Below, piece by piece: positions 5,665-37,642 of a stretch of 64,000 bases of DNA. The position numbers and the translations under genes were made by a program. Under the pieces are notes generated by a model that was not told the origin of the DNA, did not search any database, and worked only from the letters and a program-made list of their open reading frames with translations. The stretch is taken from positions 128,001 through 192,000 of the IMG/VR virus record IMGVR_UViG_3300021514_000002. One strand, given 5' to 3'. The stretch is from a virus. Taxonomy: Duplodnaviria; Caudoviricetes. The first letter of the stretch is position 1, and the number at the start of each line of letters is the position of its first letter.

Positions 5665-6453
5665 TCACCTCTTGGTATTGTTGCCACCAGTGCTTCTACC
5701 GCACTTACGATATCGTTTACTTCAAAATCACGTCTAGTATCACCTAAGATATATCTAATTCGGTGGATGGCTTCTTCCCATCTGTCTTTGCGAACAACCT
5801 CACCGTCGCCACGAAATTCATAATCCGCAGGGTCTTTGCCTTGAAACTCCCGTTTCCTAAAATCATTTTCTGTAACTTCACGTTTATCAGTTGATTTCAT
5901 TTAATTTTCCTATATTGCATCAATGTCAGTGATATCAGTTTTTTCACTGTCAAAGTTTTCACTAACATATTTTACATCCATAAATGAACACGGATACACA
6001 TGCATAGTAATAGTGTTATGTTTAGTTTCGCCATGCTTTTTAGCGTATTCAACCGCTTGCTTTAATTCTTTTAATGTTATATTAAATCTTTCTGGTTTAT
6101 TCATTTTAACTACCTTGCTTGTCTTCTAAAGCATATTCCATAGCATCTTCAAATGCACATCCCGAATCATTATATTTCAATATATAATCAATTCTATACT
6201 TGTCATAGGAAGTTATAAGGAATAGTTCACGGAGTTCTTCTTTTGTAACCTTATACAATAGACCATCCAGCACAAGGTATTCTTCACAGAATCCTTGTAA
6301 CAGCTTTTCTGTATAATCTCTGTATCCAGATAGCTTATGCCCTAACTTCGGTTTAATAGAAATCAAGACACTCTGACACAATTCTTCCAGCGTTTGACCA
6401 TTATGTTCAAAAGGAATAAGTTCTAAAGTTCCCCGTACAAAAGCAGTTGCCAT
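5661..6453 (-). other. Three small hypothetical CDS (5661-5900, 5910-6104, 6106-6453)
   Basis: Coupled co-directional ORFs. Confidence 0.65.
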
Positions 6454-6578
6454 CAGTTATCTCCAAATTTATTAATAATACAACAATTGTAACCTAATTC
6501 ACTATTATGTCTTTTACATGAGGAACATTCACCACAATGTCCTTTCTTACCAGATTCACGGTAATAAATTAGATTCAT
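6453..6578 (-). CDS. 41-aa mini-ORF duplicating the QueC-like C-terminal Cys cluster (not in ORF track)
   Basis: MNLIYYRESGKKGHCGECSSCKRHNSELG..; ATGA and TGATG overlaps with both neighbours; about 86% nt identity to 7271-7357. Confidence 0.55.
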   Translation of the reverse strand: MNLIYYRESGKKGHCGECSSCKRHNSELGYNCCIINKFGDN

Positions 6579-6775: not shown

Positions 6776-6935
6776 TATCGTTCTTCTTTGGTTTAGGGGT
6801 GTTATAATAAAGCTTCTTATTACAATGAATACAGTGTGTAAAATTTACAACACCAAAAAATTCAGAATCGTACTTCTTATCGCTTTCGTGCCAACCAATA
6901 AAACATAGTATTTTCGTAGGTAGTTTCATCTTAAT

Positions 6936-6964
6936 ATTATAACCTAATCCTAATAAGTTGTCAA
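6936..6964 (-). promoter_or_regulatory. Phage sigma70-type promoter, near-identical to the cas promoter
   Basis: TTGACA-17 bp-TATAAT; 32/33 nt identical to 17301-17333. Confidence 0.8.
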
Positions 6965-6979
6965 GTCTTGCCTAACTCA

Positions 6980-7264
6980 TCACGGTTCGTCCTTATTGAA
7001 ATATTCAAACGCAGCATTACATACAGCTTCGTTGATTGTTTCTTCTTCTTCATACATTATTTGCATTAAAGCACCCCAATCATCCCAAGTTAAACTTTCT
7101 TTCAGCTTCTCCATTATCTCAACCATTTGGTCGTTGTTTGTTAATGGGTAGTATCTGCTGCCACCAAACGTTGGCGAACCTAAATATAATATTCCGTCCG
7201 TAGTGATATAGTTAGGGAAAAGTTCCATCCCTTCTGCAATCACTTTTAACTGTTCTGGTTTCAT
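6980..7264 (-). CDS. Hypothetical protein (94 aa)
   Basis: Stop/start overlap with the queC-like gene. Confidence 0.6.
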   Translation of the reverse strand: MKPEQLKVIAEGMELFPNYITTDGILYLGSPTFGGSRYYPLTNNDQMVEIMEKLKESLTWDDWGALMQIMYEEEETINEAVCNAAFEYFNKDEP

Positions 7265-7857
7265 TCTATGCCTAACTCATTATCGTGCCTTTTGCACGAT
7301 GAACATTCACCACAGTTTCCTTTCTTACCAGATTCACAGTAATAAATTAGGTTCATTATTTGCTCATAGTATATAAAATCTTTCAAATCGTTAATTAAAT
7401 CTACCTTAGTTTTCCATTCGTATGGAAATACCAATGGCACAGTGTCACCATCACATACTAGATTATTCATCGCATCGTAAACAGCATGGATTTCGGTCTT
7501 GTAGTGCCATGCAGCATCGTATTTAATAAAGGCAATATTGACGCCACAATGAGTATTAATATTGGCGATATAAGCCACTGCAGTAATCCAAAGGGCAGGT
7601 TGAACATACATCGTTTTAGTTACCGAAATAGTATTGTATCCAAAACTATGTTCATTAACAATTTTCCCTTTAAGGTTAGCATCGTTAATAATACATCTTA
7701 ATTTTCTAATGGCGGTTTTTTCATGTCTTTGTTGATTTTCATTATTTTTCAAATCAACATACATAATGTCAATATCGCCTTGGGTTAACAATTCAATAAC
7801 CAGACAGGTACTATCCGTTCCACCTGACCATAATACTAATGGACGTTTATCACACAT
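7261..7857 (-). CDS. QueC-like (7-cyano-7-deazaguanine synthase-like) PP-loop ATPase
   Basis: PP-loop LWSGGTDST and C-terminal C-x7-CGECSSC Zn motif. Confidence 0.7.
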   Translation of the reverse strand: MCDKRPLVLWSGGTDSTCLVIELLTQGDIDIMYVDLKNNENQQRHEKTAIRKLRCIINDANLKGKIVNEHSFGYNTISVTKTMYVQPALWITAVAYIANINTHCGVNIAFIKYDAAWHYKTEIHAVYDAMNNLVCDGDTVPLVFPYEWKTKVDLINDLKDFIYYEQIMNLIYYCESGKKGNCGECSSCKRHDNELGIE

Positions 7858-10271: not shown

Positions 10272-10908
10272 TTAACACGCTTCGCCTGTCTTAGCAGTCC
10301 AACTCCGTGCCAATGTTTCCACCTCTACGTTTGGTGTAAATTTGCCCGTTTCTACAAAAATCCAAAAACCTGCGTATGGCTTCTGAACTTCTAGGCGGTT
10401 TGTCTTTTTCCACCATAACATCCCTGTTTCTACATCTACCAAAGCATGATAGATATAATTTAAATAAGAGTTGCCCGTTGTTTTCGTTAATTCAAAATTT
10501 GTAATTTTCATTGTATCCCCCTTTTATGCGTTAAGTGTAAGTTAATTCAGGGATAATGTCAAGACTTTAACCTAAAACCGCTTCAGGTTTCTAGACAATA
10601 CCACTGGCCTCGGCTTCAAGCAATACCAATATTCCCTTAGCCGTAATTGTAGGATGTGTCATGAATGCCTGTAGCCGTTCACTGCCTATATCAATCAGGT
10701 CGAGGCTGGCCAATGAAAAAAGCTCGTCAAAGCTACAATCTGCTTTTTTGCAAATGTCCGCACCTTCCATGTCAGGCGTATCCCGTATCACACGAAGGGC
10801 AATAAATTGTTCATATCCAAGATTCATTATAACCCCTTTAAATTTAGAATTTGTAAAACAGCGAATATAATAACCTAATTGATATAAGATGTCAAGGCAA
10901 AACTTCAT
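10272..10908 (-). other. Two hypothetical CDS (10272-10511, 10591-10908)
   Basis: Co-directional ORFs downstream of the HNH gene. Confidence 0.6.
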
Positions 10909-11395
10909 TTGACATTCCGCGAAAACGCTCTAATAAAAATAATAAAGAAGCCAACCCAAACAAAAAGTGCGCATGTCTTACTTTTGAATTCGCTTCTTTA
11001 ATTTCGCGTTCTTTGATACTACGTTGTTCTTTTAATTGTTTCCATTTTGCATAACGTTCTGGATTAGATGTTACCCACTTAAATTGATTATGTGATATTG
11101 TTGCGCGTTTACTATTGCAACCATTACATGCACAAGCTATATTAGACTTATGAAGCGTGCCACCTTGCGATCTCGGTAATAAGTGTTCTATGGTAGCAGT
11201 ACGGTGAAATACTTTATGAAATATTTTACGATCAGTCTCAAACCACAAATTCATTTCTCTTTCACACCAATAACATTTACCATCTTGTTTTTCGTATAGG
11301 TTTTTAAGTCGGCGCATATTACTCGACATCTTGAACGTTTTCTTACCAAGTTCAATCTGTAACATGAAATCACGTTGAAATGTAATACCACACAT
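10892..11395 (-). CDS. HNH endonuclease (McrA/HNH_5-like)
   Basis: CYWC...TIEHLLPRSQGG...NIACACNGCNSKR. Confidence 0.85.
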   Translation of the reverse strand: MCGITFQRDFMLQIELGKKTFKMSSNMRRLKNLYEKQDGKCYWCEREMNLWFETDRKIFHKVFHRTATIEHLLPRSQGGTLHKSNIACACNGCNSKRATISHNQFKWVTSNPERYAKWKQLKEQRSIKEREIKEANSKVRHAHFLFGLASLLFLLERFRGMSNEVLP

Positions 11396-11424
11396 AAACT
11401 GTACCCCTTTATTAACTTGAATAC

Positions 11425-11453
11425 ATTATACGTAATTGTAACCTAATTGTCAA
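11425..11453 (-). promoter_or_regulatory. Consensus sigma70 promoter for the HNH gene
   Basis: TTGACA-ATTAGGTTACAATTACG(17)-TATAAT. Confidence 0.8.
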
Positions 11454-11512
11454 ATAATATTTCACAGTAAGTGTCATAATAAATTCAAAATATAACCAAT
11501 ATTTTCTTTTTG

Positions 11513-12022
11513 TTTGCCTTCTGCCTATACGGCAGTGAACAACTTTGAAGCTATCAAGCTTTTAAGTATTAACTTCTAAGCTGCCTATACGGCAGTGAAC
11601 CTAATAATGTAGCAGTAATTGTTTTGTCGTTCCTTCTAAGCTGCCTATACGGCAGTGAACATGACACAACAGCGAATACACTCGTCTATGTTTCTTCTAA
11701 GCTGCCTATACGGCAGTGAACTGATAGCCGCATACCTAGTGGGTTTTTTGAAAGCTTCTAAGCTGCCTATACGGCAGTGAACATACCATTGGATAGTGGA
11801 ACGGAAAGAGGCACCTTCTAAGCTGCCTATACGGCAGTGAACCTTCCCATACTTCCAACACTTTTAGTTTCGCACTTCTAAGCTGCCTATACGGCAGTGA
11901 ACGATAGAACCTATTCCAGTTATTCCAGTTAATCCTTCTAAGCTGCCTATACGGCAGTGAACATTAGTTACCCATAGGTCTTCTGCACTTGACGCTTCTA
12001 AGCTGCCTATACGGCAGTGAAC
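11513..12022 (-). CRISPR. Type I-F CRISPR array: 9 repeats (last degenerate), 8 spacers of 32-33 nt
   Basis: 28-nt repeat GTTCACTGCCGTATAGGCAGCTTAGAAG at 11995, 11935, 11875, 11815, 11755, 11694, 11633, 11573 (left coordinates); degenerate trailer repeat 11513-11540. Confidence 0.99.
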
Positions 12023-12157
12023 AGGGTGAATTTTACTAAAAACTTAACCAAAACAAACGGTTATAGCGTTTTATACTATTTGACCAATAAAAATCATGTG
12101 ATTCATAACGTATTGATAATGTTAACATTTTATAAATAAAATATTTCATTGGTCAAA
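12023..12157 (-). promoter_or_regulatory. CRISPR leader with IHF sites and a 10-bp inverted repeat
   Basis: AT-rich; WATCAANNNNTTR match at 12106-12118 (minus), 1-mismatch site at 12051-12063 (plus); TTTGACCAAT/ATTGGTCAAA at 12079-12088 and 12148-12157. Confidence 0.75.
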
Positions 12158-12704
12158 ACCAAGGTATAGTGGCATTTTTACTTAAACCAAAGCAATCAAA
12201 TTGTCCGACAGTTTGAACTTTTGTTAATTCTCCAAAAGTCAAATATCTGCGATGTTTATGTTTATTAGAATTACTTACTAATTCCATATATGGTTCATCA
12301 AGCCCATGGTTAAACATTTTATTTTTATACAATTTTATATCAGCAGTGGATATTGAGTTTCTTTTAATTAACCGTCGTAATTTAGCTTCAGTCATATTAG
12401 ATTGCTTACGAGAAATTATTCTATAAAGGCCGTTATCTGGTACTTTACGTATAATACCAATTAAACAATATTGCGCCAAATTGCCCAACCATTTAGTATT
12501 TTGGAAGTTTGTTAGTTCGTTTTCATTACCATGAATTCTTAACGTTTTCCCAAGTACTATATTATAATCAGGGAAACTAACGCCAATATTAGATGATTTT
12601 AACGAAAACAATCTCCAATGAAATTTAGTATAAACTTCATTAAGTAATACATTTTGACGAAATTTCTTATTAGGTTGTATTAATATATCGATATAATGTT
12701 TCAT
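12153..12704 (-). CDS. cas6f: CRISPR endoribonuclease Cas6f (Csy4)
   Basis: 183 aa; IGVSFPDY...LRIHG, Arg-rich EAKLRRLIKR helix, C-terminal FDCFGLSKNATIPWF; abuts the I-F array. Confidence 0.95.
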   Translation of the reverse strand: MKHYIDILIQPNKKFRQNVLLNEVYTKFHWRLFSLKSSNIGVSFPDYNIVLGKTLRIHGNENELTNFQNTKWLGNLAQYCLIGIIRKVPDNGLYRIISRKQSNMTEAKLRRLIKRNSISTADIKLYKNKMFNHGLDEPYMELVSNSNKHKHRRYLTFGELTKVQTVGQFDCFGLSKNATIPWF

Positions 12705-13720
12705 TAGTTTCTCCTTGGACGAGTATCAATATTAGAGACATAAGCCAAGCCTTTTTTACCCAAAGGGAAACTTGACACGCCAGCATTTTCAATCATAGTT
12801 TTTATTTCTGTTGCGTCTTCACGATTAATATCTATATAAATTTCAAGTGTTCCACTGGCTTTGGTTAGCATTGAAACTACTTCACCTTCACCTTTTATTC
12901 TTTCTTTTCGGATATACGGATTACCATATATTTTCTTTTTTTCCCCCGTGGTAAAACGATCCATAAAATCTTTTTTTGTAAAAAGACGTTTAGATATACC
13001 AGATATAACGCCTGTTTTGGTAATAGCGGTAGATATATCAAATGATTCGGAAAGTCTATTTAATTGCAAATAAATGGCAGAACAATATACATTTTCAATA
13101 ACAATTTCGCCTTTATTATTAACATAATTAGTGTCATTAAATTGTGTATCTAAATATTGTATGACTTTTTTTGCCTTACCTTGAACTATAATAGATTTAA
13201 TCTTTCTTAATTCATCAAACTTTTCACAAATTACAATCGGATCAAGTTTAATTAATTTGTCTACTTTGGTATCATCTAAAATGAAAGAATATAATTCATC
13301 AGTATCTAATGCTAATACCCCCCATAATTCTTGTGAATAATCTGATTGAAAAATAACGTCATCGGTCTTAATCATCCCTGTAAAAGAATTTTGATCAGTA
13401 CTGCCTGAAATATTTCGAATATAAGTCATTTCATTAGTTAATTCTGGATTATCCATAAATGTAACTAACTTTTCAATGTCTCGGAAATAATAATCACTTG
13501 TGCTACGGGAATGGTATAACTTTCTTTGATCACCAATAAGACGATTAATTACCCCCATCACAGTATTCAGTGTGATTTCCCGACGAATAAAATTCTTCGA
13601 GGTCTTTAAATTGGTCATTGAAGCAATAAATTTACGCCCCTTTTTAGGTAATGCCACATTATTGTCGCCATCCAGAAACGAATTTCTCCACGATGAATCA
13701 TAATTAATTAATATTTTCAT
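12704..13720 (-). CDS. cas5fv: Type I-F2 (I-Fv) Cas5fv
   Basis: 338 aa; [43 protein letters not shown] resemble Shewanella putrefaciens Cas5fv as recalled; position between cas7 and cas6. Confidence 0.9.
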
Positions 13721-13729
13721 ATAAACACC

Positions 13730-14677
13730 CTATTTGGCGTAGAAATAAGATGCAAATTCAGATTCAGGCATCTCCGAGATTTCAGCTTCATTGCGCTTAA
13801 TACGCATCATTTTATTACTATCATTGTAATCAATTAAAATTTCATCAACATACATATATGATTTTGCTTGACGGATAGATAGTTCACTGATCATTTGTAA
13901 AGTGTATTCAATTAACGCTTTTATTGCATCATTATTTAATAAAATACCTACTTCACCCTCTTCAAATATTGTACCTTCACGCACATAGTTCTCATGAAAG
14001 ATAGCCATTGAATTTAATTCAGGATTAAGTGATTTAATATAATTTTGAATAGTTTTCGCAATTGTTTCACCTTCACCCTCTTTGATGGTCATGCTTGCCC
14101 TGCCAAATTTATTATCAAGTGAGATGAATTGTAATTGTTCGATACTAATGGAACCGTAAGAGAGATATTTAGTATCACCAAACGTAGTCTTTGAAAAGAA
14201 CGAAGAGCTATCACGCTCACCAGCTTGTGTCATTTGTTCAAAATTTCCATTGCCTAATTGGTCTACAAAATCTTCCATTAATAACGGGCTGGTTCGTTTA
14301 CGTTGACTAGAGGGTACAACGTAACCACGAATTAATCCTGTCATAGAGGCAAGTACTTCTAATAAGTTATTTTTCGCGGCGTAATGCAAGTCAAATGCTT
14401 GATCACGAAATAAATGATGTCTAACACAGTTTTGACTAATATATAAAGGATTTTCTTTGAAATCAATATCGGTAGCTTCCTTTTTATATTTGTAACCTGT
14501 TTCATCTTTGATCTTTCCTGTTAAATTAGAATAACCACGCAATTTTGGCATTGTATGATTGTTAAAGGTTTTCCCATCATTACCTGTTAAGGTTGTTGGT
14601 CCATTCCAATTAACAACACCGTGTCCTAACGCCGTAATCTTAAAATCAACACTTTTGATGCCTGTTACTTTTTTCAT
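13730..14677 (-). CDS. cas7fv: Type I-F2 (I-Fv) backbone Cas7fv
   Basis: 315 aa; [24 protein letters not shown]..., [20 protein letters not shown] closely resemble S. putrefaciens Cas7fv as recalled. Confidence 0.92.
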
Positions 14678-14681
14678 TTTT

Positions 14682-17267
14682 TCACCCTATTAATATATTT
14701 GAAATTGAACCAATCGGCTGCTTGTCACAAATTGCATAATAAATAGCTGATTGATGTGCTTTTTGTTCGCCACCAATGGCGTTCAAATCTTCTTTTGTGT
14801 AACTTAGATAAATTGGTGTATCTGGATTTCGTGCAGCATTTAATAATATATCTTCATTATACGTTTTTTTCGTTTTTTTGATATTATGATGTTTAGTTAA
14901 CATATATGATAACAGATTATTCTCAGCATTACCATACCCTTTTATTAACCCAACACTTGCTGTTAATCCTATTGTAGTTTGGGTATGATCAGTGTCTTCT
15001 GTATAAGCATACTCATTTGGAAATTCATATTTTTTCGAATTTACTACGCGGCAAATTGCCATTTGTACAAATCTGTTATCACCACGTAAAGAATTATTTT
15101 TAATTTTACTCGTCTGCTTGTTTAATGAAACTTTTTTATGAGGGTAAAATAATGGATCTATTATATTTTGGTTTATAAGTGTTGCACTGTCTTTTAACAT
15201 TAATAATAATTCTTCTTTAATTTCGTTTAAAGATATTTCGTCCTTATAGAATTTTTTATATAACGCATAAAGATAATTAATATCAACAACATTACTGTTA
15301 ACATTGGAACATAAAAAATTATACCATGCTTTAGTGCTTTTTAATAAATTCTGCGTTCTTAAAAACCAACCGGTTTGTCCATTATCTATATTTTCAGGTA
15401 CTACCGTAAGGTATTCATTGATTGTGTTATTTTTACCAAAACGATCTAAACGACCTAACCGCTGTAACCAATTCTCTGCGGTTGTTAATTCTGTTATCAT
15501 GTTATCGCAGCTAATGTTTAATGAGGATTGAATGATAGGTCCACTACGCATTATATCGAATTCACTATTACCACCTTCCTTGAAATTATCCATAATCGTA
15601 TTAAATAATGAAAGTTTATCAGCTTTTTTGAATTTAGAATGAAACAATATACCATTTTCTTGATGCATATTTTTAATAAAACCGAGTTGTGCAGTAATTG
15701 CGGTATTACTAATCACAAACGTATTCTTTTTGAATATTTTTTGTGTTAATAATGAATTATTCACATCATCAATTTTAAAATTTACACGATATTTAGATTT
15801 GTTAAAGCTTTTAATATCAAATATATCACTTGAATCAATTTTTAAGACTTTATTCACAAAATAGTAATTGGGTGTAGCAGATACCAATAATGTATTTGCC
15901 TTATCTCCTTGTAACTTTTTGTTTTCAATTAGTTCTGCAAACAACAAATTAAAGGCTGGCATTGTAATTAATTCATGATATTCATCGAAAATGACATGTG
16001 AATTCATTAAAGTTATTAATGCAGTTATATCAGAATGTGTGGTAATTGTGTTTATCGCGTGATCTATCGTAGTAATAACAATATCCCCTGTGAACATATT
16101 ATGTTCTGCGGTTTCCTGCTCAATGCCATTAGTTTTTGTATTTTTGTACTCACCTGTATAAATTTCTATTCGACTGTTTTTTAAATAATCCAATTGTGAC
16201 AGATCGTGATATAGTCCAAGACACACGTTTACCCGAGGAGCTATCCATATAATTTTCTTAACATTACTGTTGAATGCCCATTCTAGGGCAATTTTAGTTT
16301 TACCACAACCCGCTGGCCCTTCAAGAACTGCAATATCGTTAACATCTTGACATTGTTTTGCCACTACCGCTTGTGCTTTGTTTTGTTGACTATCTGGGTA
16401 TAATATAGTAAAGCCTTCAAGACATTGCGCTATTTCAGTTTGAAGCGTACTATTATTATCCAAATGTTTATTGGTTAAAAAGTTTAAACTTTTATCGTTT
16501 ATACGTGTTGTCAATTCACAAGCTGAAAGTGTTGACACAATTCTATCAGCAGTTATAATAGCAGCCCTGATGATATTTTTATCAGCGTTTTCTTTAATTT
16601 CCCTAGTATAATCATCAATAATATCATTGTTTTCCGAATATTCTTTATAAAGGAGATTTTGTTTTTTTAAAGCGTATACAGCATCCTCAGTTATATCCGT
16701 TACTCGTTTCGGTAATTTGATAACATTATTAGAATAAGTTAAGAGTGAAGAATTTACACTTTCCAATATTTGACTGGCTTCTTTTAGAAATAATTCCATA
16801 TTCATATCAGCATTAAAAGAATTATTGACTTTATTGTAAATTTCAGCTTGATTTTTGTAATTATTCTTTCTTATAGGTTTACTGTGATGCCAGTAAATAC
16901 CATGTGTCGCATAATCAAATTGTTTTGGATTTAATCTTTTATCATTTCGATCATTTAGTAAATTAAATAGAAATAGTGAAATTTCGTTGTGTCTTGGATG
17001 CTTTTCAAAAGAAAATTTGCCCCTGTTGATATGTACCCCATCATTAACATCCACTGCTTTTGAACGAGAGTTTAACCAGTTTTGAAATGCAGGATCTAAT
17101 TTACCGATGTCGTGGAAGCAACCCGCCACCAATGTAGCATATGCTAATTTACTATTATTAGTAAGTTTATTAACAATATCATATCCAATCCACCCAACAG
17201 CAAATAAATGATCGGCAAGTAAATGTTGTTTATCATTAGCATAATATGATATTAAATTATTGGTCAC
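14682..17267 (-). CDS. cas3: Cas3 HD nuclease-helicase, apparently without an N-terminal Cas2 domain
   Basis: HD motifs HLLADH, FHDIGK, WHH, TAD; SF2 motifs [23 protein letters not shown]; GTG start with the first HD-domain His about 15 aa in. Confidence 0.95.
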
Positions 17268-17303
17268 TATTCTGAGTATCCTACTTCTGTTTAAGTTGAC
17301 AAT

Positions 17304-17332
17304 ATTATAACCTAATTCTAATAAGTTGTCAA
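17304..17332 (-). promoter_or_regulatory. Phage-type sigma70 promoter of the cas operon
   Basis: TTGACA-ACTTATTAGAATTAGGT(17)-TATAAT, 36 nt upstream of the cas3 start. Confidence 0.85.
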
Positions 17333-17580
17333 GCCATGACTAATTCATTTTCAACTTGTTTTAATTTCTGATGATTATCAATGCGCATTAGGTTCTTTTC
17401 AGACTGTACATATACACCGCTTTCAGAATACCTTCCACCATACCTATACAATGTAAGTTGAAGAACATCTACCTCCCACAAATCAACAGCTATTAAATCG
17501 TCTAATCCACCTAAAAAATTACCCACTGTCACACACTTACCAATATTTTCAGGGCGTCCACTATTAATCACTAAGGCCAA
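17329..17580 (-). CDS. Hypothetical protein (83 aa; start may extend upstream)
   Basis: VINSGRPENIGKCVTV phage-type small protein; occupies the position where cas1 would be expected. Confidence 0.6.
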   Translation of the reverse strand: MALVINSGRPENIGKCVTVGNFLGGLDDLIAVDLWEVDVLQLTLYRYGGRYSESGVYVQSEKNLMRIDNHQKLKQVENELVMA

Positions 17581-17711
17581 TCAACCTTTTTCTATTTTCA
17601 TTTTAACTTCCTTTATAAACAATACACAATAATATCATATATTACCTATTAAGGTCAAGGATTAAAGAATAGCCATAGCATAGCCGTACCTGTCAATTCC
17701 CAACATTTCAC

Positions 17712-17740
17712 TTGACAATTAGGTTATAATGTTATATGAT
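17712..17740 (+). promoter_or_regulatory. sigma70-type promoter
   Basis: TTGACA-17-TATGAT containing the ATTAGGTTA motif. Confidence 0.7.
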
Positions 17741-17770
17741 TACTACATACCAACTTTTAAGGATTAAATA

Positions 17771-18190
17771 ATGCCAGCTTATAATATATCTAAAACGTTA
17801 GAACTTGTTGCTTATTATGACGCTGATTACGGTTCGCCCACTATTCGGGAATTGTTTACCGCAAGTTTGTGTTCAGGTATTAAACCTTTCATGTTAGATA
17901 AGAATACTCCTGCCTTTGATTATAATGAATTACTTGAAACTTTCTGGATTCATATGGTTTATCCAGTATCAGATTCATCATTACAAATTCATATTAGTTC
18001 TATACTGGACAGTCTGTTCTATGCCCATTATATTAGTGGGAGTCAAGATCAAGACGGTAATCTGGATATTGATAGTTGTGATCTTCTTGAAGTAGGTGAA
18101 GTAGTAGCAGAATTACTTATTGAATTTTGTGCATGTAATGAACCTTATGTAGTACAATCTACAGATCATCATCAGTGGTTCAACCATTAA
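17771..18190 (+). CDS. Hypothetical protein (139 aa)
   Basis: Follows promoter; AAGGA RBS. Confidence 0.7.
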   Translation: MPAYNISKTLELVAYYDADYGSPTIRELFTASLCSGIKPFMLDKNTPAFDYNELLETFWIHMVYPVSDSSLQIHISSILDSLFYAHYISGSQDQDGNLDIDSCDLLEVGEVVAELLIEFCACNEPYVVQSTDHHQWFNH

Positions 18191-18219
18191 CCACATGATG
18201 AATAAGGGTATTATATAAC

Positions 18220-18627
18220 ATGGTTAAACGTAACTCTGTATTTAATATAGAAGTACCACATTTAGCGATGCTTTTATTTGAATTGTATGAATATGATAAA
18301 GTTGATATTGATGCTTTTGCTAATGACGTAAAGAAACATATATTGCCAAAAAATGACAAGACTAACATTAATGATATTGTACATAGAATTAGAAATAAAT
18401 CACATGTAGATAAAATAGATTTACCAAAAGGATATTATGTAAGATCTGATGGACAATTAAATACTTTTTGGTTGGATAAATCATACACGTATATGCAATA
18501 CGAAACTAGTAGATGGGGGTATAGTTGGACGCGAAAACAAATACTACAAATAAACAATTTCGTTAAAAATAATGGATGGCAGATAATTACAGTCATACTC
18601 ATTATTATAGGTATTATTCGCAAATAA
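18220..18627 (+). CDS. Hypothetical protein with C-terminal TM helix
   Basis: Hydrophobic tail WQIITVILIIIGII. Confidence 0.65.
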   Translation: MVKRNSVFNIEVPHLAMLLFELYEYDKVDIDAFANDVKKHILPKNDKTNINDIVHRIRNKSHVDKIDLPKGYYVRSDGQLNTFWLDKSYTYMQYETSRWGYSWTRKQILQINNFVKNNGWQIITVILIIIGIIRK

Positions 18628-18666
18628 CCTAATTCTTATAAGATGTCAAGCCTTAAAGACTTCAAT

Positions 18667-19410
18667 TCAAATTTCGTAACTATCATATAGTTGGGTATGT
18701 AAATCCTCCAACATAGAAACCATACAATCTAATCGGATATCAGACTTTGATGTTTCACGCAAGGTCTTGACATCCAGTAGGATTTCAGCACTCAGCACCC
18801 GCTTGTTCTTTAATGTAGTCACTTTAAAGAATGTGCTAACCAAGCCACTATCCCTAACATATTCATTATGCTTCAAAAAATCAGCCGCTGATTTTTTGTC
18901 TGTAAAATTGACAATAAACCGCTTCCCGCTTCCCTCTACATAATTACAGACATCATCACACATAATTTCGTTTAAGTAATATAGGTTAGCATAGTTCTCA
19001 CGATGGATATCATTCAAGGCTTTTTCCACTGTAATATAGGGGGGTATGTTAATAGGAGTTCTTGTATTTTTAGCAACAACGTTCTTTGGTTTAAACTTAT
19101 ATAAGAAGGGGAAATGTCCTATGATTCCCAATAATTCCGTCTGGCGAATAATTAAGTCTTTGGCAACTTTGAATATGGCTATGTCAAACCATTCAGTATG
19201 GCCATCGCCTTTATATATCCTTGTATTGTATTCTTTGAAATGTAGATGGCAGAAGTTTTCTACAGCTGTCGCGTTTTCGCATTCAAACATATAGGTTTTA
19301 TCATAGTTAATTTCCCCAACTACGGTGACTAGTCTTGATCTAGGGTTATTAGAAAACCCAATCTTGAAAGCGGTTTTTTCAACATTAGGGGCAAAGTATA
19401 GGTATGACAT
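18667..19410 (-). CDS. GIY-YIG family (T5orf172-like) protein
   Basis: YLYF..KIGFSNNPRSRL...ENFCHLHF...GHTEWF. Confidence 0.75.
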   Translation of the reverse strand: MSYLYFAPNVEKTAFKIGFSNNPRSRLVTVVGEINYDKTYMFECENATAVENFCHLHFKEYNTRIYKGDGHTEWFDIAIFKVAKDLIIRQTELLGIIGHFPFLYKFKPKNVVAKNTRTPINIPPYITVEKALNDIHRENYANLYYLNEIMCDDVCNYVEGSGKRFIVNFTDKKSAADFLKHNEYVRDSGLVSTFFKVTTLKNKRVLSAEILLDVKTLRETSKSDIRLDCMVSMLEDLHTQLYDSYEI

Positions 19411-19454
19411 ATCCTTAGTATATCATGAAGCCTTAAAGACTTCAAGTTTGACAA

Positions 19455-19685
19455 TCACAATATTCCCATGGCATAGTCGTACCTGTCTTTCGTACTGTCA
19501 AAGACTTCCATCTCCAAGGCATGGGTCAATTCCCGACTACTCTTTCTGTCTGTCAATACATAGACCGTTCCATTTGTGCCCACCCGTACAGGATACGTCT
19601 GTCCCTTAGTAAACAATACTCTTCCACTTCCCAGACTGTAGTAGTCACATACAGCTTTTACCCTGTCACCTGTCTTGTATTTCAT
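19455..19685 (-). CDS. Hypothetical SH3-like protein
   Basis: YKTGDRVKAV..FTKGQTYPV; C-terminal YDYAMGIL. Confidence 0.55.
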   Translation of the reverse strand: MKYKTGDRVKAVCDYYSLGSGRVLFTKGQTYPVRVGTNGTVYVLTDRKSSRELTHALEMEVFDSTKDRYDYAMGIL

Positions 19686-20437
19686 ACAATAAACACCTCT
19701 AATACACTTCCCAGTTCAAACAGTATTTCATTAACATTAGGAAATAGCCATGTATTTTCCGCCTGTTTATTACCATAATGATTTAACATGTCAAATACAT
19801 GACCTGAGAAATCTGGATACCAATGGAAGATTTTAACAACATCTATCTGTTTATCCCTTAGTTCTTTCATAAGGGTACTAACACCTTGCTTGTGTATCAT
19901 TATGGAAAGAAGGTTAGGGGATTGTACGCTGGTCTTATACAGTATCAACAGTGGGTCAATATTACGATTGGCTTCAATACGATGTTTAATATCTTTGCCT
20001 AAGAAGTTCTTCCAGCCCCCATTGACATAGAAAGAAGGGTAACGTCGGGCAGGATTTTTAGGGATTCCTTTAGGGATTAGACCATCGTCAAAGGCTTCTT
20101 TATACTGATCAACGTTTTTAAATTGCATCGTTTGTATTAGATTTACCGCCTCCCAATATTTCATAAGATCTTTTTCACGTACAGCTTTAGGACTATCTGC
20201 ATCGTAAACATTGTCAGTTTCAAGGAATGTTTTCCAGTCTATCCATTCAGGATATACCCTTTCTGGTCGTGTGGGAATACCCCCAGGTTTATAGTCACGT
20301 ACCCATGCACGATACTGGCGAAAGGTTTTAATCCCTGCCATATTAGTTAAGTCTTTACACATATGATAAGGTATCCACCTCCAGTCCATGGGTTTACTCT
20401 TTAGGACTATCTTAGGGATGGTTGTTTTCTTACCCAT
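19682..20437 (-). CDS. Integrase-repeat-unit-like protein
   Basis: Two GIPxxPxxxY...WxxFL repeats. Confidence 0.55.
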   Translation of the reverse strand: MGKKTTIPKIVLKSKPMDWRWIPYHMCKDLTNMAGIKTFRQYRAWVRDYKPGGIPTRPERVYPEWIDWKTFLETDNVYDADSPKAVREKDLMKYWEAVNLIQTMQFKNVDQYKEAFDDGLIPKGIPKNPARRYPSFYVNGGWKNFLGKDIKHRIEANRNIDPLLILYKTSVQSPNLLSIMIHKQGVSTLMKELRDKQIDVVKIFHWYPDFSGHVFDMLNHYGNKQAENTWLFPNVNEILFELGSVLEVFIV

Positions 20438-21140
20438 TATCAGGATTCCATGTATTACCTTTTTGAAGGTTTTCAGAAGCGGTTATAATTTGTAGGTTAT
20501 ATTCAACATGAAGTCCACAGACATTCACACCTTGTAATGGAACAATATGGTCAACGTGAAATATTTCATTACCACCAGCGATTCTGGTACAAATATTTAA
20601 ATCTTGACAATCTTCATAAATGTCATGGATTATTTTTATATTTGACCATATTGGTCTGGCTTGTATTCTCCATGCTCTACGAGAAGCACAGTATGCATTA
20701 TTTTGTGCTTTATTATTTTGTCTATATAATCGTTGTTGTTTATTAAGATGGTTTTTGTTGTGTTTTTTGTATTTTCCACTACACAATTTTATCTTATCAC
20801 GATTACATATATTATATTCTTTATTGTATTCGGATATTTTTTCGTAATTCTGTTCAACATATTTTTTATGTTGTTTGTTCACTTCCTTCTTGTTATTCTG
20901 ATACCATTCTTTTTGTTGCATCATTAAATATTCTTTATTCTTATTTCTATATCCTTTATTGTATTGTGCTATTTTTTTCTTATTATTTGCCTTATATTGT
21001 TTATCATATGTTTTACTACATCCCGCACAACAACCATTAATCACTCTTCTTTCAGTAATATGTCCTTGGGGACATTCTTTTCCTGTAAAGTACCAAATTA
21101 AACCTGTTTCTTTTGCTTCTTTTCTTGTTATCACTTTCAT
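20430..21140 (-). CDS. HNH homing endonuclease
   Basis: N-terminal ITRKEA..GL..YFTGKEC; C-terminal HVDHIVPLQGVNVCGLHVEYNLQII..SEN. Confidence 0.85.
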   Translation of the reverse strand: MKVITRKEAKETGLIWYFTGKECPQGHITERRVINGCCAGCSKTYDKQYKANNKKKIAQYNKGYRNKNKEYLMMQQKEWYQNNKKEVNKQHKKYVEQNYEKISEYNKEYNICNRDKIKLCSGKYKKHNKNHLNKQQRLYRQNNKAQNNAYCASRRAWRIQARPIWSNIKIIHDIYEDCQDLNICTRIAGGNEIFHVDHIVPLQGVNVCGLHVEYNLQIITASENLQKGNTWNPDNG

Positions 21141-26959: not shown

Positions 26960-27559
26960 TTAACGAAGCCAGTATTCAACGCCATCAAAATCAACGCTGG
27001 TATAATCCATTTGGATGTCACTTGCAACGCCTTCCCAATCGATATTGTTTTCAATATAACTGGGAATGTCTTGTGGTAAGTCGCCTATGTCTTGAATTAA
27101 ATCTTTGGCGTATTCTTCAAAGTAGGAATCACGGATCAATGCCGTACCATATTCCCAATCAGGGGCATAACCTTCAGCATCTTCTGCTAATGATTTAATA
27201 GGTTCCAGTTCTTCATTGGCTTCTGCAATGTCGTTTTCAATCGTAGTGATATTATCTTCAAGTTCTTGAATTTCAGAACGAAGTGAATCAACCGCGTTTT
27301 CAATTTCAGCAATTTCATCAGCGTCGTCTTCATCGTCAAGTTCCTGCGACTTATCTTCGAGCTCATCAATCTCAGCTTCTTTGTCTTCAATTTCAATACG
27401 ATGGTCGTTGGTGTCTTCTTCCCAACCACTAATATCTGATTCAAGTTCATCAATACGTGCAATGACATCGCGCGAATCAATGATGTCTTCTGAATTGTCT
27501 ACTTCGTTTGCCATGATATTATTTCCTATATTTGTTAACGATAAGTAATTATAACCCAT
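26960..27559 (-). CDS. Highly acidic coiled-coil protein with ArdA-like C-terminus (possible anti-restriction DNA mimic)
   Basis: Very Asp/Glu-rich; LPQDIPSYIENNIDWEGVASD resembles the ArdA YIDYEAYxRD tail. Confidence 0.45.
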   Translation of the reverse strand: MGYNYLSLTNIGNNIMANEVDNSEDIIDSRDVIARIDELESDISGWEEDTNDHRIEIEDKEAEIDELEDKSQELDDEDDADEIAEIENAVDSLRSEIQELEDNITTIENDIAEANEELEPIKSLAEDAEGYAPDWEYGTALIRDSYFEEYAKDLIQDIGDLPQDIPSYIENNIDWEGVASDIQMDYTSVDFDGVEYWLR

Positions 27560-27579
27560 CCTTGGGTAACTGTCAAATA

Positions 27580-28296
27580 TTAATTCTTAGAAAACTTAAT
27601 AAATTCATCAATATTTTCTTTAGCAAAGAGTATGATTTCGTTAATAATAGTGTCGGGGGTATCTAACTTATCCTTAGCGCAATCAATCATATCAATAACA
27701 TCTTGACGTTCTTCGTCTTCATCTTCGTCAAAGTTATAGCCCATTATATCTTCGGCGAATCGTTTCCATTGTTCATCATCGTTGCTTAACATGTTTTCAA
27801 CTTCACCATTTGCAATGATGATGTTACCAGAGAAGTAACCACCTTCTTCAACTACGTCAATTTCAAATTCCAAAGTTGGATATAGTTCTGCCAACTTTTC
27901 AAAAATTGGATCGGGTGTTGACCATGCAGTTTGGAAAGCAAAACAATTTTCACAATGATCAGCAGGGCTATAATCATAAGCACCCCACTTAGTACCTTGA
28001 TTAGTAACTTTCCAATCATACCAGTTATCGTGACCATAGGATTCGATCAAGCGTTTAGACTTCTTTTCCCATGCTTTATATTCTACACTGTCAGGTGAAG
28101 CTTCTTTACCATCTACCCGTGGTGGGCTGTTGGGCGCGCGCGTGCCAGCCAGCTCTGCAGGGAATGGAATAATTGTATCGAATTCAAAACAGTCCTTACC
28201 ATTTTCGCCTTTGGCGGTAACGTGATTATCGAAAAACTTTTTAACTTCTGCATCTGTGCCATTGACAGACATAATATGGTAGACATGATTTGGCAT
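27580..28296 (-). CDS. DUF1281/YubB ferredoxin-like domain protein
   Basis: MPNH.., WYDW....GTKW, FQTAWSTP..IFEKLAELYPTLEF. Confidence 0.7.
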   Translation of the reverse strand: MPNHVYHIMSVNGTDAEVKKFFDNHVTAKGENGKDCFEFDTIIPFPAELAGTRAPNSPPRVDGKEASPDSVEYKAWEKKSKRLIESYGHDNWYDWKVTNQGTKWGAYDYSPADHCENCFAFQTAWSTPDPIFEKLAELYPTLEFEIDVVEEGGYFSGNIIIANGEVENMLSNDDEQWKRFAEDIMGYNFDEDEDEERQDVIDMIDCAKDKLDTPDTIINEIILFAKENIDEFIKFSKN

Positions 28297-29496
28297 AATT
28301 TTTACCTTTAAATTTGGTTGTGATGATTATGTGATTGTAACCTAATTGTGATAGGTTGTCAATAACTAATATTCAGCAGGTGTTACGTCCATTGGACGAT
28401 CAGTCAATTTACGAGCCTTACTATAAATGTCACGGATAGATACACTCTCGCGCTCGCCCTTACTGTTAATAGCTTCGGCAAAACCAATAATGTAACGCAA
28501 TTTTTCTGCCCCTGATTCCATAAAGATCGCAACCTCGCCATCTATTAAATGTTCAGATACTATTAACGGTAAATCTATTTCAGTTTCATTGTCATCTTCT
28601 TCATCATATGAATATGTAGGCCATCCAGCACCATCAGCATCATTGCCGAGAATAACAAAACCATCATCGTTATTTTGTTCAACCTCAATGCCGGGAATTT
28701 CTAACATTGCCGCTAAAAATGCTTCATCGTCTTTTACTTTGAAATAATTTGTTCTGCAATTTGCATGATAATTTGCCATGATATTTTCCTTGTGATGGTT
28801 ATGTGATTAGATAGATTCTACCATATCATTAATGATAGTATCAATTTGTTCAGTTGTCAAACCTTTAACAGGTACGCATCGTTCGTAAGATACTTCTAAG
28901 CCCTTGTCGCGACCATATTCAAAGTCAAGGTTAGTACCAGCAAGGAATAAGATTTCGTCTCCACCTGATTCGTTACGGCCATTATCAGCAGAATAATACA
29001 TTGCCCGTAACTGATAAAAGAACGTACCGCCTTCGGTTAAATAATCGCTTTCTGTTTCACTTAACTCTTCGGCTAACTCACCCAGATCCATATCATATAA
29101 TGAATGATAATTAATGACATTAGGATTTGGATTCTTAATTTGTTCAATCAAGTAATAAAAACCAAGGCTTTCTGAATTTTTCTCACAAAAAGCTTCGAGG
29201 GCATCTTGTAAAGACTGTTCAATTACTTTATCGAGTTGGTTAGATACTTTTTCATTAGCTGACATATTACCAGAGCTAAATCCAGTATGTAAGTCTGTAG
29301 GTACGGTTAGATCAAAGCCACCGTTTGTAAATGGAATAAACCCATCATATCCTTTATGGTTAATGGGTTGTACTTGTGTATCAATACAACCACCATAATT
29401 TTCTGGTAGGTCATCCATCGCATCTTGAAACTTTGTTTCAATGTGTGATGATAATGTGACGGGTACATTCATGAGTTGCATATCTAATTACCTTTA

Positions 29497-29548
29497 TTTG
29501 TTGACGTTAGAGCTATTATTACATAACCCTATATCTTTGTCAATAACT
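29497..29548 (-). repeat. 52-bp promoter cassette repeated exactly at 32665-32716
   Basis: TTTGTTGACGTTAGAGCTATTATTACATAACCCTATATCTTTGTCAATAACT identical in both; variants near 30244 and 38715. Confidence 0.9.
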
Positions 29549-30684
29549 TAATTAAACATTTCAATTTGTTGTGGTGATTCTGTGATGTCATACTTTATAG
29601 CGGACTTAATTTCACTAATCATATGATCAGCATTGTATCCAAAATAGCCCCAGCAAGAATCGATGTCTTTTTCTTCACCAGCATCATCTTTAACGATACT
29701 AAAACCGTAAACTTCGCCAGTAAGATACTGGTCATATGTTTCAACTTCACCAGTAAGATGCGTTGCAACCTTTTTGCGCCATTTTAAAGAAACACGCTGA
29801 AGGCTATATTCTTTACGAATATCTTCATGAGATATATAGATATACCCTACGCGGCCAGAATCCCAGCCACATGAAAACCCGCCTGTGTTCATTGTGATAC
29901 CTGAATGATCATATAGGTACAATGGCAATACTACATATTTCTTATGTACAATTTCCCAACATTTATCGATTTGTTTATCGGTTAAATATTCATAACATTC
30001 TTCATCATACAATCCAGACAATTCATGTACCATTGCAATTGGGGTTTCAAAATCATGTTTGTCGCCAAGATTATAACGGTTATGAAAACAGACCATAGTG
30101 CCAAGGTTATCCCACTCACGCGGGCTTTCTGACATATCATCATGTTCGATCTTGATAGTATAATCCCCGAATTCAGTAGTTTCCATATAAGGAATGTGTA
30201 ATGCTTCGAGATTTAATGTATCGTGGTTCATGGTAATTACCTTTTGTTTGTTGACGTTAGGGCTATTATTACATAGCCCTGTTTGTTTGTCAATAACTAA
30301 TCGTGTTGTTTATCAATTTCATTTTGTAATTGATTAAGTAAACCAATTGTAGTAACTAAGCGATCAATAGCATCACTTGTATCTTTGCGACGTGCATGTA
30401 ACATAGTTTGTATTTCAATATCATCCTTTTCTGATAACATACGCACTTCATCGGCAGTAGTAACAACATCCTCTAATACTGTATCGTCTTGAAAATCGCA
30501 CTGCATTTCTAATGCGCGCATTAATGAGTTCACTTGTGATTGTGTGGTAAGAGCGAGCGTAATAGTTTTCATAGTCTTTACCTTTTGTTTATTGACAGTG
30601 GGCACATTATTACATAGCGGCATATCCTTGTCAACAATTAATTTGTATATTAGTATATCTGAATATTCTAATATACCTGCCCAT

Positions 30685-30768
30685 ATTTGCCAGTTCTATG
30701 TAGACTTTTCGCCTTCGGCTTTCCTTAGCTTCTGTAAACATTATAGCCCATCCTTGGGCTACTGTCAA
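30685..30768 (-). ncRNA. Candidate small RNA with own promoter (copy B; paralog at 42000-42110)
   Basis: Hairpin promoter followed by GTTTACAGAAGCTAAGGAAAGCCGAAGGCGAAAAGTCTACATAG; no ORF. Confidence 0.45.
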
Positions 30769-31987: not shown

Positions 31988-32016
31988 AAAACACCAGCCG
32001 AAAGAGGTGGCTGGTG
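31987..32016 (-). terminator. Intrinsic terminator
   Basis: CACCAGCC-loop-GGCTGGTG followed by TTTTT on the minus strand. Confidence 0.75.
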
Positions 32017-37600: not shown

Positions 37601-37642
37601 CACAATAACAAAGATAATTTTTAAAGTCAATAACTATTTGCC

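What the first reader, a model, noticed from the sequence alone, without database searches (positions are those of the whole stretch)
17200..17333. Cas3 appears stripped of its Cas2 domain and joined directly to a phage promoter
Seen: the first HD-domain His is ~15 aa after a GTG start, and 36 nt upstream is a perfect TTGACA-17-TATAAT promoter that is 32/33 identical to a phage promoter at 6933-6965 and carries the phage-wide AATTAGGTTA motif. Known: type I-F Cas3 is normally a Cas2/3 fusion whose nuclease is restrained by Cas1. Inference: loss of cas1 and the Cas2 domain plus a strong early promoter gives a domesticated, immediately expressed nuclease.
Basis: partly seen in the sequence, partly recalled or inferred. 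Interest (0 to 1): 0.7.

Follow-up and report, generated by a model that had tools for sequence, protein, structure and literature searches.

The report
Phage Cas3 lacking Cas2, own promoter

Summary
Observation confirmed. On the minus strand, TTGACA (17332-17327), a 17-nt spacer and TATAAT (17309-17304) lie 36 nt before GTG 17267. That GTG starts an 861-aa HD-helicase Cas3, followed by cas7fv, cas5fv, cas6f and a 9-repeat array. The 363.5-kb phage genome has no cas1 and no Cas2 domain.

Interpretation partly supported.
- The closest homologue with a known setting (59% identity, bacterial chromosome, with cas1) has the Cas2 domain, so Cas2 was lost secondarily.
- Cas3 starts where Cas2-bearing relatives end their Cas2 part. 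It aligns from the N-terminal residues of the laboratory Cas2-truncated Shewanella Cas3 in PDB 9G44.
- Its nearest relative of all (52%) is also Cas2-less, also directly behind a sigma-70-type promoter, and lies on a contig that looks like a related phage.
- However, Cas2-less Cas3 is not phage-specific. In the I-F2 clade 39 of 55 representative rows (mostly one per 50%-identity cluster) lack Cas2. The loci I inspected are mostly bacterial-looking: either cas1-less or next to an I-F1 cas1-cas2/3.

"Unrestrained, immediately expressed nuclease" is untested. No RNA data exist, and the GTG start with an 11-nt Shine-Dalgarno gap argues against high translation.

Earlier scan notes described adaptation-less I-F2 (chlamydia-like genome) and unfused-Cas3 modules (huge phages) on other DNA.

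Verdict: new variant of a known kind, moderate interest.

The parts
17327..17332 (-). -35 hexamer TTGACA of the cas3 promoter; its TGA (17331-17329) is also the stop codon of the upstream 83-aa ORF
17304..17309 (-). -10 hexamer TATAAT, 17 nt after the -35
17308..17317 (-). AATTAGGTTA promoter-spacer motif abutting and overlapping the -10; candidate operator shared by a class of the phage's promoters
17268..17297 (-). Predicted 30-nt 5' UTR. The TSS is inferred at A17297, 7 nt after the -10. AGGA lies at 17282-17279, 11 nt before the GTG. No significant RNA structure.
   Evidence: inference; no TSS data
14682..17267 (-). cas3, 861 aa, GTG start: HD nuclease + SF2 helicase + C-terminal domain, no Cas2 domain; HD and DExH residues intact
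13730..14677 (-). cas7fv (315 aa)
   Evidence: NF040577, 475 bits, cut-off 200
12704..13720 (-). cas5fv (338 aa)
   Evidence: PF20158, E 1e-61
12153..12704 (-). cas6f/csy4 (183 aa), start overlaps the cas5fv stop
12023..12152 (-). CRISPR leader; a 10/12 promoter-like site lies at 12156-12127
11513..12022 (-). CRISPR array: 8 identical 28-nt I-F-type repeats plus one degenerate terminal repeat, 8 spacers of 32-33 nt; the 7 spacers between identical repeats have no match elsewhere in the phage genome
17329..17580 (-). Upstream 83-aa ORF (weak match to phrog_2529, unknown function); not a Cas2 remnant; has its own weaker promoter-like site at 17658-17629
6936..6964 (-). Twin promoter (32/33 identical over 6933-6965), 6 nt before ATG 6929 of a 54-aa ORF
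10892..11395 (-). HNH homing-endonuclease-like gene just after the array, behind its own perfect promoter (11453-11425)
18667..19410 (-). T5orf172/GIY-YIG-like homing endonuclease gene upstream of the cassette

Best explanation
This is an interference-only type I-F2 CRISPR-Cas cassette (cas3, cas7fv, cas5fv, cas6f, array) in the early/hyperplastic region of a 363.5-kb T4-like phage.

Its Cas3 is a natural stand-alone form. It begins within a residue or two of the Cas2/HD domain boundary of its Cas2-bearing relatives. The Cas2 domain was lost together with cas1, which is the only way an I-F system can shed its adaptation module.

Shown: the anatomy, the absence of Cas1 and Cas2, intact catalytic motifs, and nesting within Cas2-bearing relatives.

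Inferred:
- Host sigma-70 RNA polymerase transcribes the operon from the consensus promoter at 17332-17304, as one member of the phage's set of consensus promoters. It shares their AATTAGGTTA spacer motif, a probable operator.
- Cas6f processes the array transcript and Cas5fv/Cas7fv/Cas6f assemble a Cas8-less Cascade.
- Monomeric Cas3 is recruited to the R-loop, as in PDB 9G44, and shreds DNA matching the eight spacers. The targets are unknown; a competing element or host DNA is plausible.

The Cas2-less design is not a phage innovation. It recurs in many lineages of I-F2, mostly bacterial, and this phage lineage inherited or re-created it.
For: Module identity:
- Cas7fv, Cas5fv and Cas6f all match their family models.
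- The genes are tightly coupled with 0-9 nt gaps.
- Eight of nine 28-nt repeats are identical.

Cas3 integrity:
- 59% identity to P0002 over residues 10-856 without gaps of note.
- Invariant H20, H52/D53, H93, H127/H128, GxGKT 320-324 and D428/E429/H431 are all present.
- The AF2 model matches 9g44_A best, with TMq 0.74.

N-terminus:
- Residues 8-856 align to 15-870 of 9g44_A. That chain is an engineered Cas2-truncated Shewanella Cas2-3f2 that binds the Cascade R-loop (PMC12956352).

Absence of the adaptation module:
- No Cas1 or Cas2 in a genome CheckV rates 100% complete.

Secondary loss:
- (P0001, P0122) is sister to Cas2+ P0002, then Cas2+ P0004, with support 100/98 and 95/96.
- P0002 sits in a bacterial cas1-cas2/3 operon.

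Recurrence of the Cas2-less form:
- It is scattered over the trees, needing at least 17 changes among 121 rows and at least 10-12 among 127.
- Forcing four neighbouring Cas2-less rows into one clade is rejected, p-AU 0.0003.
- Contexts were inspected.

Promoter:
- 13 perfect sites against 0.08 expected, clustered in this region.

Residence in phages:
- cas genes have GC 28-34% and GC3 20-26%, at or below the phage mean of 36%.
- P0122 (52% identity) lies on contig L045, next to a homologue (42.5% over 247 aa) of window ORF 19682-20437. It sits behind four DnaA boxes and a TTGCAA-17-TATAAT site 5 nt before its ATG.
- That ORF family occurs only in contigs resembling T4-like early regions.
- The phage, including a cas3 piece, recurs without differences in a second vent metagenome from another study.
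Against: - No transcript, TSS or protein data exist, so promoter use and timing are inference.
- A second promoter-like site at 17658-17629 could also feed the operon, and no terminator lies between it and cas3.
- Translation signals are weak: a GTG start with AGGA 11 nt upstream, against AAGGAG for cas6f.
- A perfect antisense TTGACA-16-TATAAT lies inside cas3 at 16532-16559.
- No spacer target was found, so activity is unproven.
- P0001 and P0122 are both AT-rich with long branches, so their pairing could be partly compositional.
- The phage assignment of L045 rests on a 4.8-kb contig.
- Whether Cas2 was lost before or after capture by a phage cannot be told.
Confidence: 0.7

Rival explanations
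1. One reading: the phage itself removed cas1 and the Cas2 domain and fused cas3 to a strong early promoter. The purpose would be a Cas1-unrestrained nuclease that fires immediately on infection (adaptive domestication).
For: - The sister Cas2+ form is bacterial.
- Both members of the small phage-associated pair (P0001, P0122) are Cas2-less and sit directly behind sigma-70-type promoters.
- The promoter is a perfect consensus.
- Cas1 represses Cas2/3 in I-F1, according to Rollins 2017 as cited in PMC12956352.
Against: - The Cas2-less form is common in bacterial-looking loci with no phage context, so no phage-specific selection is needed.
- Repression by Cas1 has not been shown for I-F2.
- In phage ICP1, Cas1 helps interference instead of restraining it (bioRxiv 10.1101/2024.03.09.584257, abstract).
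- A weak RBS, a GTG start and an internal antisense promoter do not fit maximal expression.
- No RNA data exist.
Confidence: 0.25
2. The phage, or an ancestral mobile element, captured a four-gene module that was already Cas2-less and cas1-less. The promoter similarity reflects promoter-cassette recombination in a hyperplastic region (PeSL-like shuffling or homing-endonuclease-assisted exchange), not regulatory tuning of cas3.
For: - Identical four-gene architecture occurs in bacterial-looking contigs (L004, L006, L007/8, L009, L046/47).
- The cassette is flanked by HNH, T5orf172 and EndoVII-like genes.
- The 33-nt twin promoter, with partial identity further upstream, suggests duplication.
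- Near-perfect sigma-70 promoter cassettes mediate gene shuffling in T4-like phages (PMC4122927).
- Relatives carrying the ORF-251 family have no cas genes nearby.
Against: - The nearest homologue with a known setting still has Cas2 and cas1.
- No stem-loop of the PeSL type lies upstream of the promoter.
- No donor was found.
Confidence: 0.35
3. The locus is a decaying or silent remnant: a 5'-truncated cas3 left over from a deletion, no longer used.
For: - No adaptation genes.
- No spacer target found.
- The terminal repeat is degenerate.
- GTG start.
Against: - All four ORFs are intact with every invariant catalytic residue.
- Eight repeats are identical.
- Composition is fully adapted to the phage.
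- Cas2-less architecture is kept across 52% divergence.
- An identical cas3 piece occurs in a second study's metagenome, and contigs show alternative spacers in the array.
Confidence: 0.07

Closest known systems
Type I-F2 (I-Fv) CRISPR-Cas of Shewanella putrefaciens CN-32, including the engineered Cas2-truncated Cas3 in PDB 9G44 (PMC12956352)
   Same: - Same Cas8-less Cascade set (Cas7fv, Cas5fv, Cas6f) and I-F-type 28-nt repeats.
- The Cas3 core matches over its full length at 719 bits; Foldseek gives TMq 0.74 and 41% identity.
- The phage protein aligns from the N-terminal residues of the laboratory truncation (residue 8 to residue 15 of the chain).
   Different: The natural Shewanella gene is a Cas2-Cas3 fusion preceded by cas1. 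Here Cas2 and cas1 are absent from the whole genome, the carrier is a lytic-type T4-like phage, and cas3 has its own consensus promoter.
Vibrio phage ICP1 type I-F CRISPR-Cas (PMC10161043; bioRxiv 10.1101/2024.03.09.584257)
   Same: A phage-borne type I-F-family system used offensively by a phage.
   Different: ICP1 keeps cas1 and a Cas2/3 fusion, has a reduced Cas8f, and is reported to need Cas1 to bridge Cas2/3 to its Cascade. The present system has neither Cas1, Cas2 nor Cas8.
Adaptation-less CRISPR-Cas systems of huge phages (Al-Shayeb et al. 2020, PMC7162821)
   Same: A large phage with an interference module and array but no Cas1/Cas2/Cas4. That paper states this is the rule for phage CRISPR systems.
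   Different: My term search of that paper found no 'type I-F' and no removal of a fused Cas2 domain. Its quoted type I example is a I-C variant in which a helicase replaces Cas3.
PeSL promoter-terminator cassettes of T4-like phages (PMC2839356, PMC4122927)
   Same: Near-perfect TTGACA-N17-TATAAT promoters, repeated in hyperplastic regions next to variable accessory genes.
   Different: No associated stem-loop was found at the cas3 promoter. The shared element here is a spacer motif (AATTAGGTTA), not a hairpin.
Stand-alone Cas3 of type I-E/I-C (e.g. T. fusca Cas3, PDB 4QQW)
   Same: HD + helicase + CTD protein with no Cas2 domain; by general knowledge it is recruited by Cascade alone. These are the next-best structural matches after 9G44.
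   Different: Only 13-16% sequence identity; different Cascade partners.

Membership tests
Type I-F2 (I-Fv) CRISPR-Cas | Cas7fv backbone subunit | tested here: met
   NF040577 cas_Cas7fv scores 475 bits against a cut-off of 200
Type I-F2 (I-Fv) CRISPR-Cas | Cas5fv with helical domain, replacing Cas8 | tested here: met
   PF20158, E 1.1e-61; no other gene lies between cas3 and cas6f
Type I-F2 (I-Fv) CRISPR-Cas | Cas6f endoribonuclease and 28-nt I-F-type repeats | tested here: met
   PF09618 and TIGR02563 match; 9 repeats at 60-61 nt period
Type I-F2 (I-Fv) CRISPR-Cas | Cas2-Cas3 fusion protein (the signature of all type I-F according to PMC9428484 and PMC12956352) | tested here: not met
   No PF21384 in P0001. 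The protein starts at the position of residue ~101 of Cas2+ P0002. A Cas2 profile finds nothing in six frames of the genome.
Type I-F2 (I-Fv) CRISPR-Cas | cas1 adjacent to cas2/3 | tested here: not met
   PF01867 over the whole genome gives only a 14.7-bit hit with two stop codons
I-F2-type Cas3 core (HD + SF2 helicase + CTD) | Full-length homology and intact HD and DExH motifs | tested here: met
   TIGR01587 and TIGR01596 score above their cut-offs
PeSL cassette of T4-like phages | Near-consensus sigma-70 early promoter | tested here: met
   12/12 hexamer match with a 17-nt spacer
PeSL cassette of T4-like phages | Conserved stem-loop/terminator paired with the promoter | tested here: not met
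   No terminator-like hairpin on the minus strand anywhere in 10500-19500
T4-type early promoter (host sigma-70, expressed at once after infection) | Early timing of transcription | not testable with these tools
   No RNA run was listed. AsiA and MotA were not detectable by Pfam. The phage is T4-like by Gp23, E 8e-97.

The most novel reading that the evidence does not exclude
A lineage of T4-like phages (this phage plus the source of contig L045) has kept a promoter-fused, Cas2-less I-F2 Cas3 through roughly 50% sequence divergence, as a Cas1-independent offensive nuclease. Meanwhile its array is still renewed, either by borrowing a host I-F Cas1-Cas2/3 in trans or by array recombination. Low-depth contigs in two vent metagenomes show alternative spacers. 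A related possibility: the conserved Met-Asp at the Cas2/HD boundary of fused Cas2/3f2 proteins (74 and 84 of 89) marks an internal start that also yields free Cas3 in bacteria.
Probability: 0.25. Interest if true: 0.6.

Novelty: new variant of a known kind. Interest (0 to 1): 0.4.

Why it matters
The papers I read define type I-F systems, I-F2 included, by the Cas2-Cas3 fusion (PMC9428484, PMC12956352). Here nature repeatedly makes the same Cas2-less Cas3 that structural biologists had to engineer. It does so in a T4-like jumbo phage and in many bacterial-looking loci.

That gives three things:
- a ready set of natural, compact, adaptation-free I-F2 effectors, four genes in about 5.1 kb;
- a natural test of what the Cas2 domain and Cas1 contribute to Cas3 control;
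- an example of how a phage wires a captured defence module into its own promoter regulon.

It does not overturn current understanding. Phage CRISPR systems without adaptation genes are already the known rule.

Tried and rejected
- RNA evidence: no RNA holder was listed for 11400-18700, so TSS and expression could not be examined.
- Close relatives: megablast of the locus against INPHARED phages found nothing. Single-protein scans of IMG/VR with Cas3, the AAA ATPase, ORF 20430-21140 and the ORF-251 alignment gave no close relative. The profile scan gave one 44% hit (L010, with cas1 and Cas2) and 24-29% huge-phage Cas3s.
- Spacer targets:
  - no phage match;
  - the plasmid matches are repeat-to-repeat only;
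  - the 7 spacers between identical repeats have no match elsewhere in the genome at up to 6 mismatches;
  - the first 24 nt of spacer 1 are absent from the viral, metagenome and genome collections.
- Host clue from the repeat: exact copies occur only in Oxalobacter and Klebsiella, which is uninformative.
- Cas2 remnant upstream: the 83-aa ORF and all six frames are negative.
- The Cas1 'hit' at genome 106734-106826 was rejected (14.7 bits, two stops).
- The X2 joint 11513->17145 (20-nt side, 25 foreign letters) was treated as a chimeric or unrelated contig, not as a cas deletion.
- The 5' UTR fold is no better than shuffles (z -0.19).
- AsiA and MotA were not found.
- The in-frame stop is at 17342-17340.
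Full report
**What is there**

The window is bases 128001-192000 of a 363,531-bp virus record that CheckV rates complete. The phage is T4-like by its Gp23-family capsid gene, E 8e-97. The minus strand reads as follows.
- TTGACA at 17332-17327, a 17-nt spacer, then TATAAT at 17309-17304.
- 36 nt further on, GTG at 17267.
- GTG 17267 opens an 861-codon frame ending at 14682.
- Then come a 315-aa Cas7fv (NF040577, 475 bits), a 338-aa Cas5fv (PF20158), a 183-aa Cas6f, a 130-nt leader and nine 28-nt I-F-type repeats.

GTG 17267 is the first canonical start after the in-frame stop at 17342-17340. The next canonical start would remove the invariant His20.

**More than chance**

- Perfect TTGACA-N17-TATAAT occurs 13 times in the window against 0.08 expected. 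With 16-18 nt spacers it occurs 27 times in the genome, 16 of them in this 64-kb stretch.
- AATTAGGTTA occurs 15 times against 0.36 expected. Of 23 copies in the genome, 16 lie inside a promoter-like context, against 3% of random positions.
- The motif appears in either orientation, either just after the -35 or abutting the -10. That looks like a protein-binding site shared by one class of the phage's promoters, not a sigma contact. This is inference.
- The cas3 promoter and its twin share more than the motif and hexamers require. This suggests duplication or a longer common operator.

**Cas3 really lacks Cas2, and the genome lacks Cas1**

- Pfam finds the HD, DEAD/ResIII and Cas3 C-terminal domains but not PF21384.
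- The best homologue, P0002 (59% identity), aligns from its residue 111 to residue 10 of the phage protein and carries PF21384 at residues 1-79.
- A profile I built from 89 Cas2-plus-linker segments of I-F2 proteins finds nothing in six frames of the phage genome. It readily finds the Cas2 domains of control loci.
- PF21384 and PF01867 searches of the genome are negative.
- The upstream 83-aa ORF matches a phage family of unknown function, phrog_2529 (E 1.6e-4), not Cas2.

**The N-terminus coincides with a domain boundary**

- The only close PDB relative is 9g44_A (719 bits, residues 8-856 to 15-870). PMC12956352 states that this chain is a deliberately Cas2-truncated Shewanella Cas2-3f2, which still docks on the I-F2 Cascade R-loop.
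- The AF2 model of the phage protein (pLDDT 71) matches 9g44_A best, at TMq 0.74.
- In fused relatives the boundary carries a conserved Met-Asp (74 and 84 of 89). Several natural Cas2-less proteins begin exactly at it, and the phage GTG lies one or two residues later.
- All invariant HD and DExH residues are present.

**Evolution: a secondary loss, but a common one**

- Among the 120 best hits, 98 carry Cas2 and about 22 do not. The Cas2-less ones are scattered over the tree.
- The exhaustive search of 50%-identity cluster representatives changed my first impression. In the inner I-F2 clade, 39 of 55 rows (mostly one per cluster) lack Cas2. All more distant clades also lack it.
- Nearly all of these begin with Met a few residues before the ANT..Q.L..HxFAVG motif.
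- The Cas2 domain and linker are homologous wherever present. One old fusion with many losses is therefore more likely than many gains. This is inference.

The loci I inspected:
- L002/L003: a Cas2-less I-F2 Cas3 sits downstream of an I-F1 cas1-cas2/3, with csy1-4 further on.
- L005: a Cas2-less I-F2 Cas3 between cas1 and an I-F1 cas2/3.
- L004, L006, L007/8 (Thiomargarita MAG), L009 and L046/47: four-gene modules with no cas1 in the sequence held.
- No Cas2 remnant lies upstream in L004 and L006-L009, the loci scanned with the Cas2 profile.

**Where the phage copy sits**

- In a careful tree (LG+C20 PMSF), P0001 pairs with P0122 (827 aa, Cas2-less; support 100/98). This pair is sister to Cas2+ P0002 (100/98) and then Cas2+ P0004 (95/96).
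- Holding four neighbouring Cas2-less rows together is rejected, p-AU 0.0003. I chose that group after seeing earlier trees.
- P0002 lies in a bacterial chromosome, beside RNase PH and HemN, in a canonical cas1-cas2/3-cas7fv-cas5fv-cas6f operon with the same subunit lengths.
- P0122 has no closer relative than these. It lies on a 4.8-kb contig, L045.
- On L045 a divergent gene is 42.5% identical over 247 aa to window ORF 19682-20437. The 43 residues that follow cas3 are 75% identical to the phage Cas7fv.
- The intergenic region of L045 holds four TTATCCACA boxes. TTGCAA-17-TATAAT ends 5 nt before the cas3 ATG.
- The ORF-251 family has only a dozen members. Those I inspected lie in contigs packed with 70-100-aa genes, one of which matches a T4 family (PF26092), and without cas genes.
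- I read this as a small phage-associated Cas3 lineage that has been Cas2-less and promoter-proximal for a long time, with the cassette an accessory of the hyperplastic region.
- Caveat: both proteins are AT-rich with long branches, and L045 is short.

**Signs of residence and use**

- cas genes have GC 28-34% and GC3 20-26%, at or below the phage average of 36%.
- Contigs from a second vent metagenome, from another study, reproduce pieces of the region without differences. These include part of cas3 and the twin promoter.
- Low-depth contigs in both samples replace spacers with other 32-nt sequences.
- HNH, T5orf172 and EndoVII-like genes flank the cassette.

**How it most likely works**

Inferred: host sigma-70 polymerase starts near A17297 and transcribes the four genes, perhaps with the array. 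A 10/12 site at the leader may add array transcripts. Cas6f, Cas5fv and Cas7fv build the Cas8-less Cascade. Monomeric Cas3 is recruited to R-loops as in 9G44.

What I cannot support is 'unrestrained and immediately abundant'.
- Repression by Cas1 is known for I-F1 only.
- In phage ICP1, Cas1 is reported to assist interference.
- The start is GTG with AGGA 11 nt upstream, while cas6f has AAGGAG.
- A perfect antisense promoter lies inside cas3.
- A second promoter-like site at 17658-17629 could read through, with no terminator in between.

**Comparison with what is known**

- Phage CRISPR systems without Cas1/Cas2/Cas4 are the rule in huge phages (PMC7162821).
- ICP1 is the counter-example that keeps Cas1 and Cas2/3.
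- The papers I read describe I-F2 as having a Cas2-Cas3 fusion. The 2025 classification passages I read list no Cas2-less I-F2 variant. I found no paper describing one, but my searches were limited.
- Near-perfect sigma-70 promoter cassettes that shuffle accessory genes are known in T4-like phages (PeSLs). The hairpin part is absent here.
- Earlier notes of this scan described an adaptation-less I-F2 in a chlamydia-like genome and unfused-Cas3, Cas8-less modules in huge phages on other DNA.

**Verdict**

It is a natural Cas2-less variant of I-F2, carried by a T4-like jumbo phage and wired to a phage consensus promoter. The variant itself is widespread and mostly bacterial. Interest is moderate.

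Noticed in passing
window 16532-16559 (+): A perfect TTGACA-16-TATAAT promoter lies antisense inside cas3, opposite the codons for the conserved [10 protein letters not shown] segment. It would send RNA polymerase towards the cas3 start and promoter. It could be a by-product of AT-rich codons or an antisense control element.
   Followed up: partly
window 11722-11876 and 11816-11903: Low-depth contigs of two vent metagenomes (X2 and X1) carry other 32-nt spacers in place of the assembled ones. The array seems to vary between populations although the phage has no Cas1 or Cas2.
   Followed up: partly
proteins P0002, P0004, P0050, P0109 and 85 others, residues ~97-100: Fused I-F2 Cas2/3 proteins keep a Met-Asp at the Cas2/HD boundary (Met in 74 and Asp in 84 of 89). 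Several natural Cas2-less Cas3 proteins start exactly at it. An internal translation start giving free Cas3 is conceivable.
   Followed up: partly
window 6927-6964 (-); L045 2219-2255 (+): The twin promoter ends 6 nt before the ATG of a 54-aa ORF. The L045 promoter-like site ends 5 nt before the cas3 ATG. Both would give leaderless or nearly leaderless mRNAs.
   Followed up: no
window 27548-42028, several sites: A second class of perfect promoters has a palindromic spacer (such as CCCAAGGATGGG). Many promoters of both classes are followed by GTCAAC a few bases after the -10. The cas3 promoter also has GTCAAC, at 17300-17295.
   Followed up: no
window 10892-11395, 18667-19410, 20430-21140 (all -): Three homing-endonuclease-type genes (HNH, T5orf172/GIY-YIG-like, EndoVII/HNH-like) bracket the CRISPR-Cas cassette.
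   Followed up: partly
L045 1965-2025: Four TTATCCACA DnaA boxes lie in the 372-nt intergenic region upstream of the related Cas2-less cas3. They resemble the DnaA-box cassettes that another note reports for this phage.
   Followed up: no
window 6453-6578 (-) versus 7261-7857 (-): A 41-aa ORF repeats the C-terminal ~30 residues (a Cys-rich segment) of the QueC-like 198-aa protein encoded 700 nt upstream. It looks like a duplicated gene end.
   Followed up: no
L002 3235-17455; L005 920-7827: Composite bacterial loci. L002 has I-F1 cas1-cas2/3, then a Cas2-less I-F2 cas3 with a split cas7fv, cas5fv and cas6f, then csy1-4. L005 has cas1, a Cas2-less I-F2 cas3 and an I-F1 cas2/3 in a row, with no Cascade genes nearby.
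   Followed up: no
L010 3767-9402: A 51-kb IMG/VR contig with a capsid-like gene and a LAGLIDADG gene carries cas1 plus a Cas2-bearing I-F2-type cas3 (44% identity). That cas3 is split into two frames at about 7820.
   Followed up: partly
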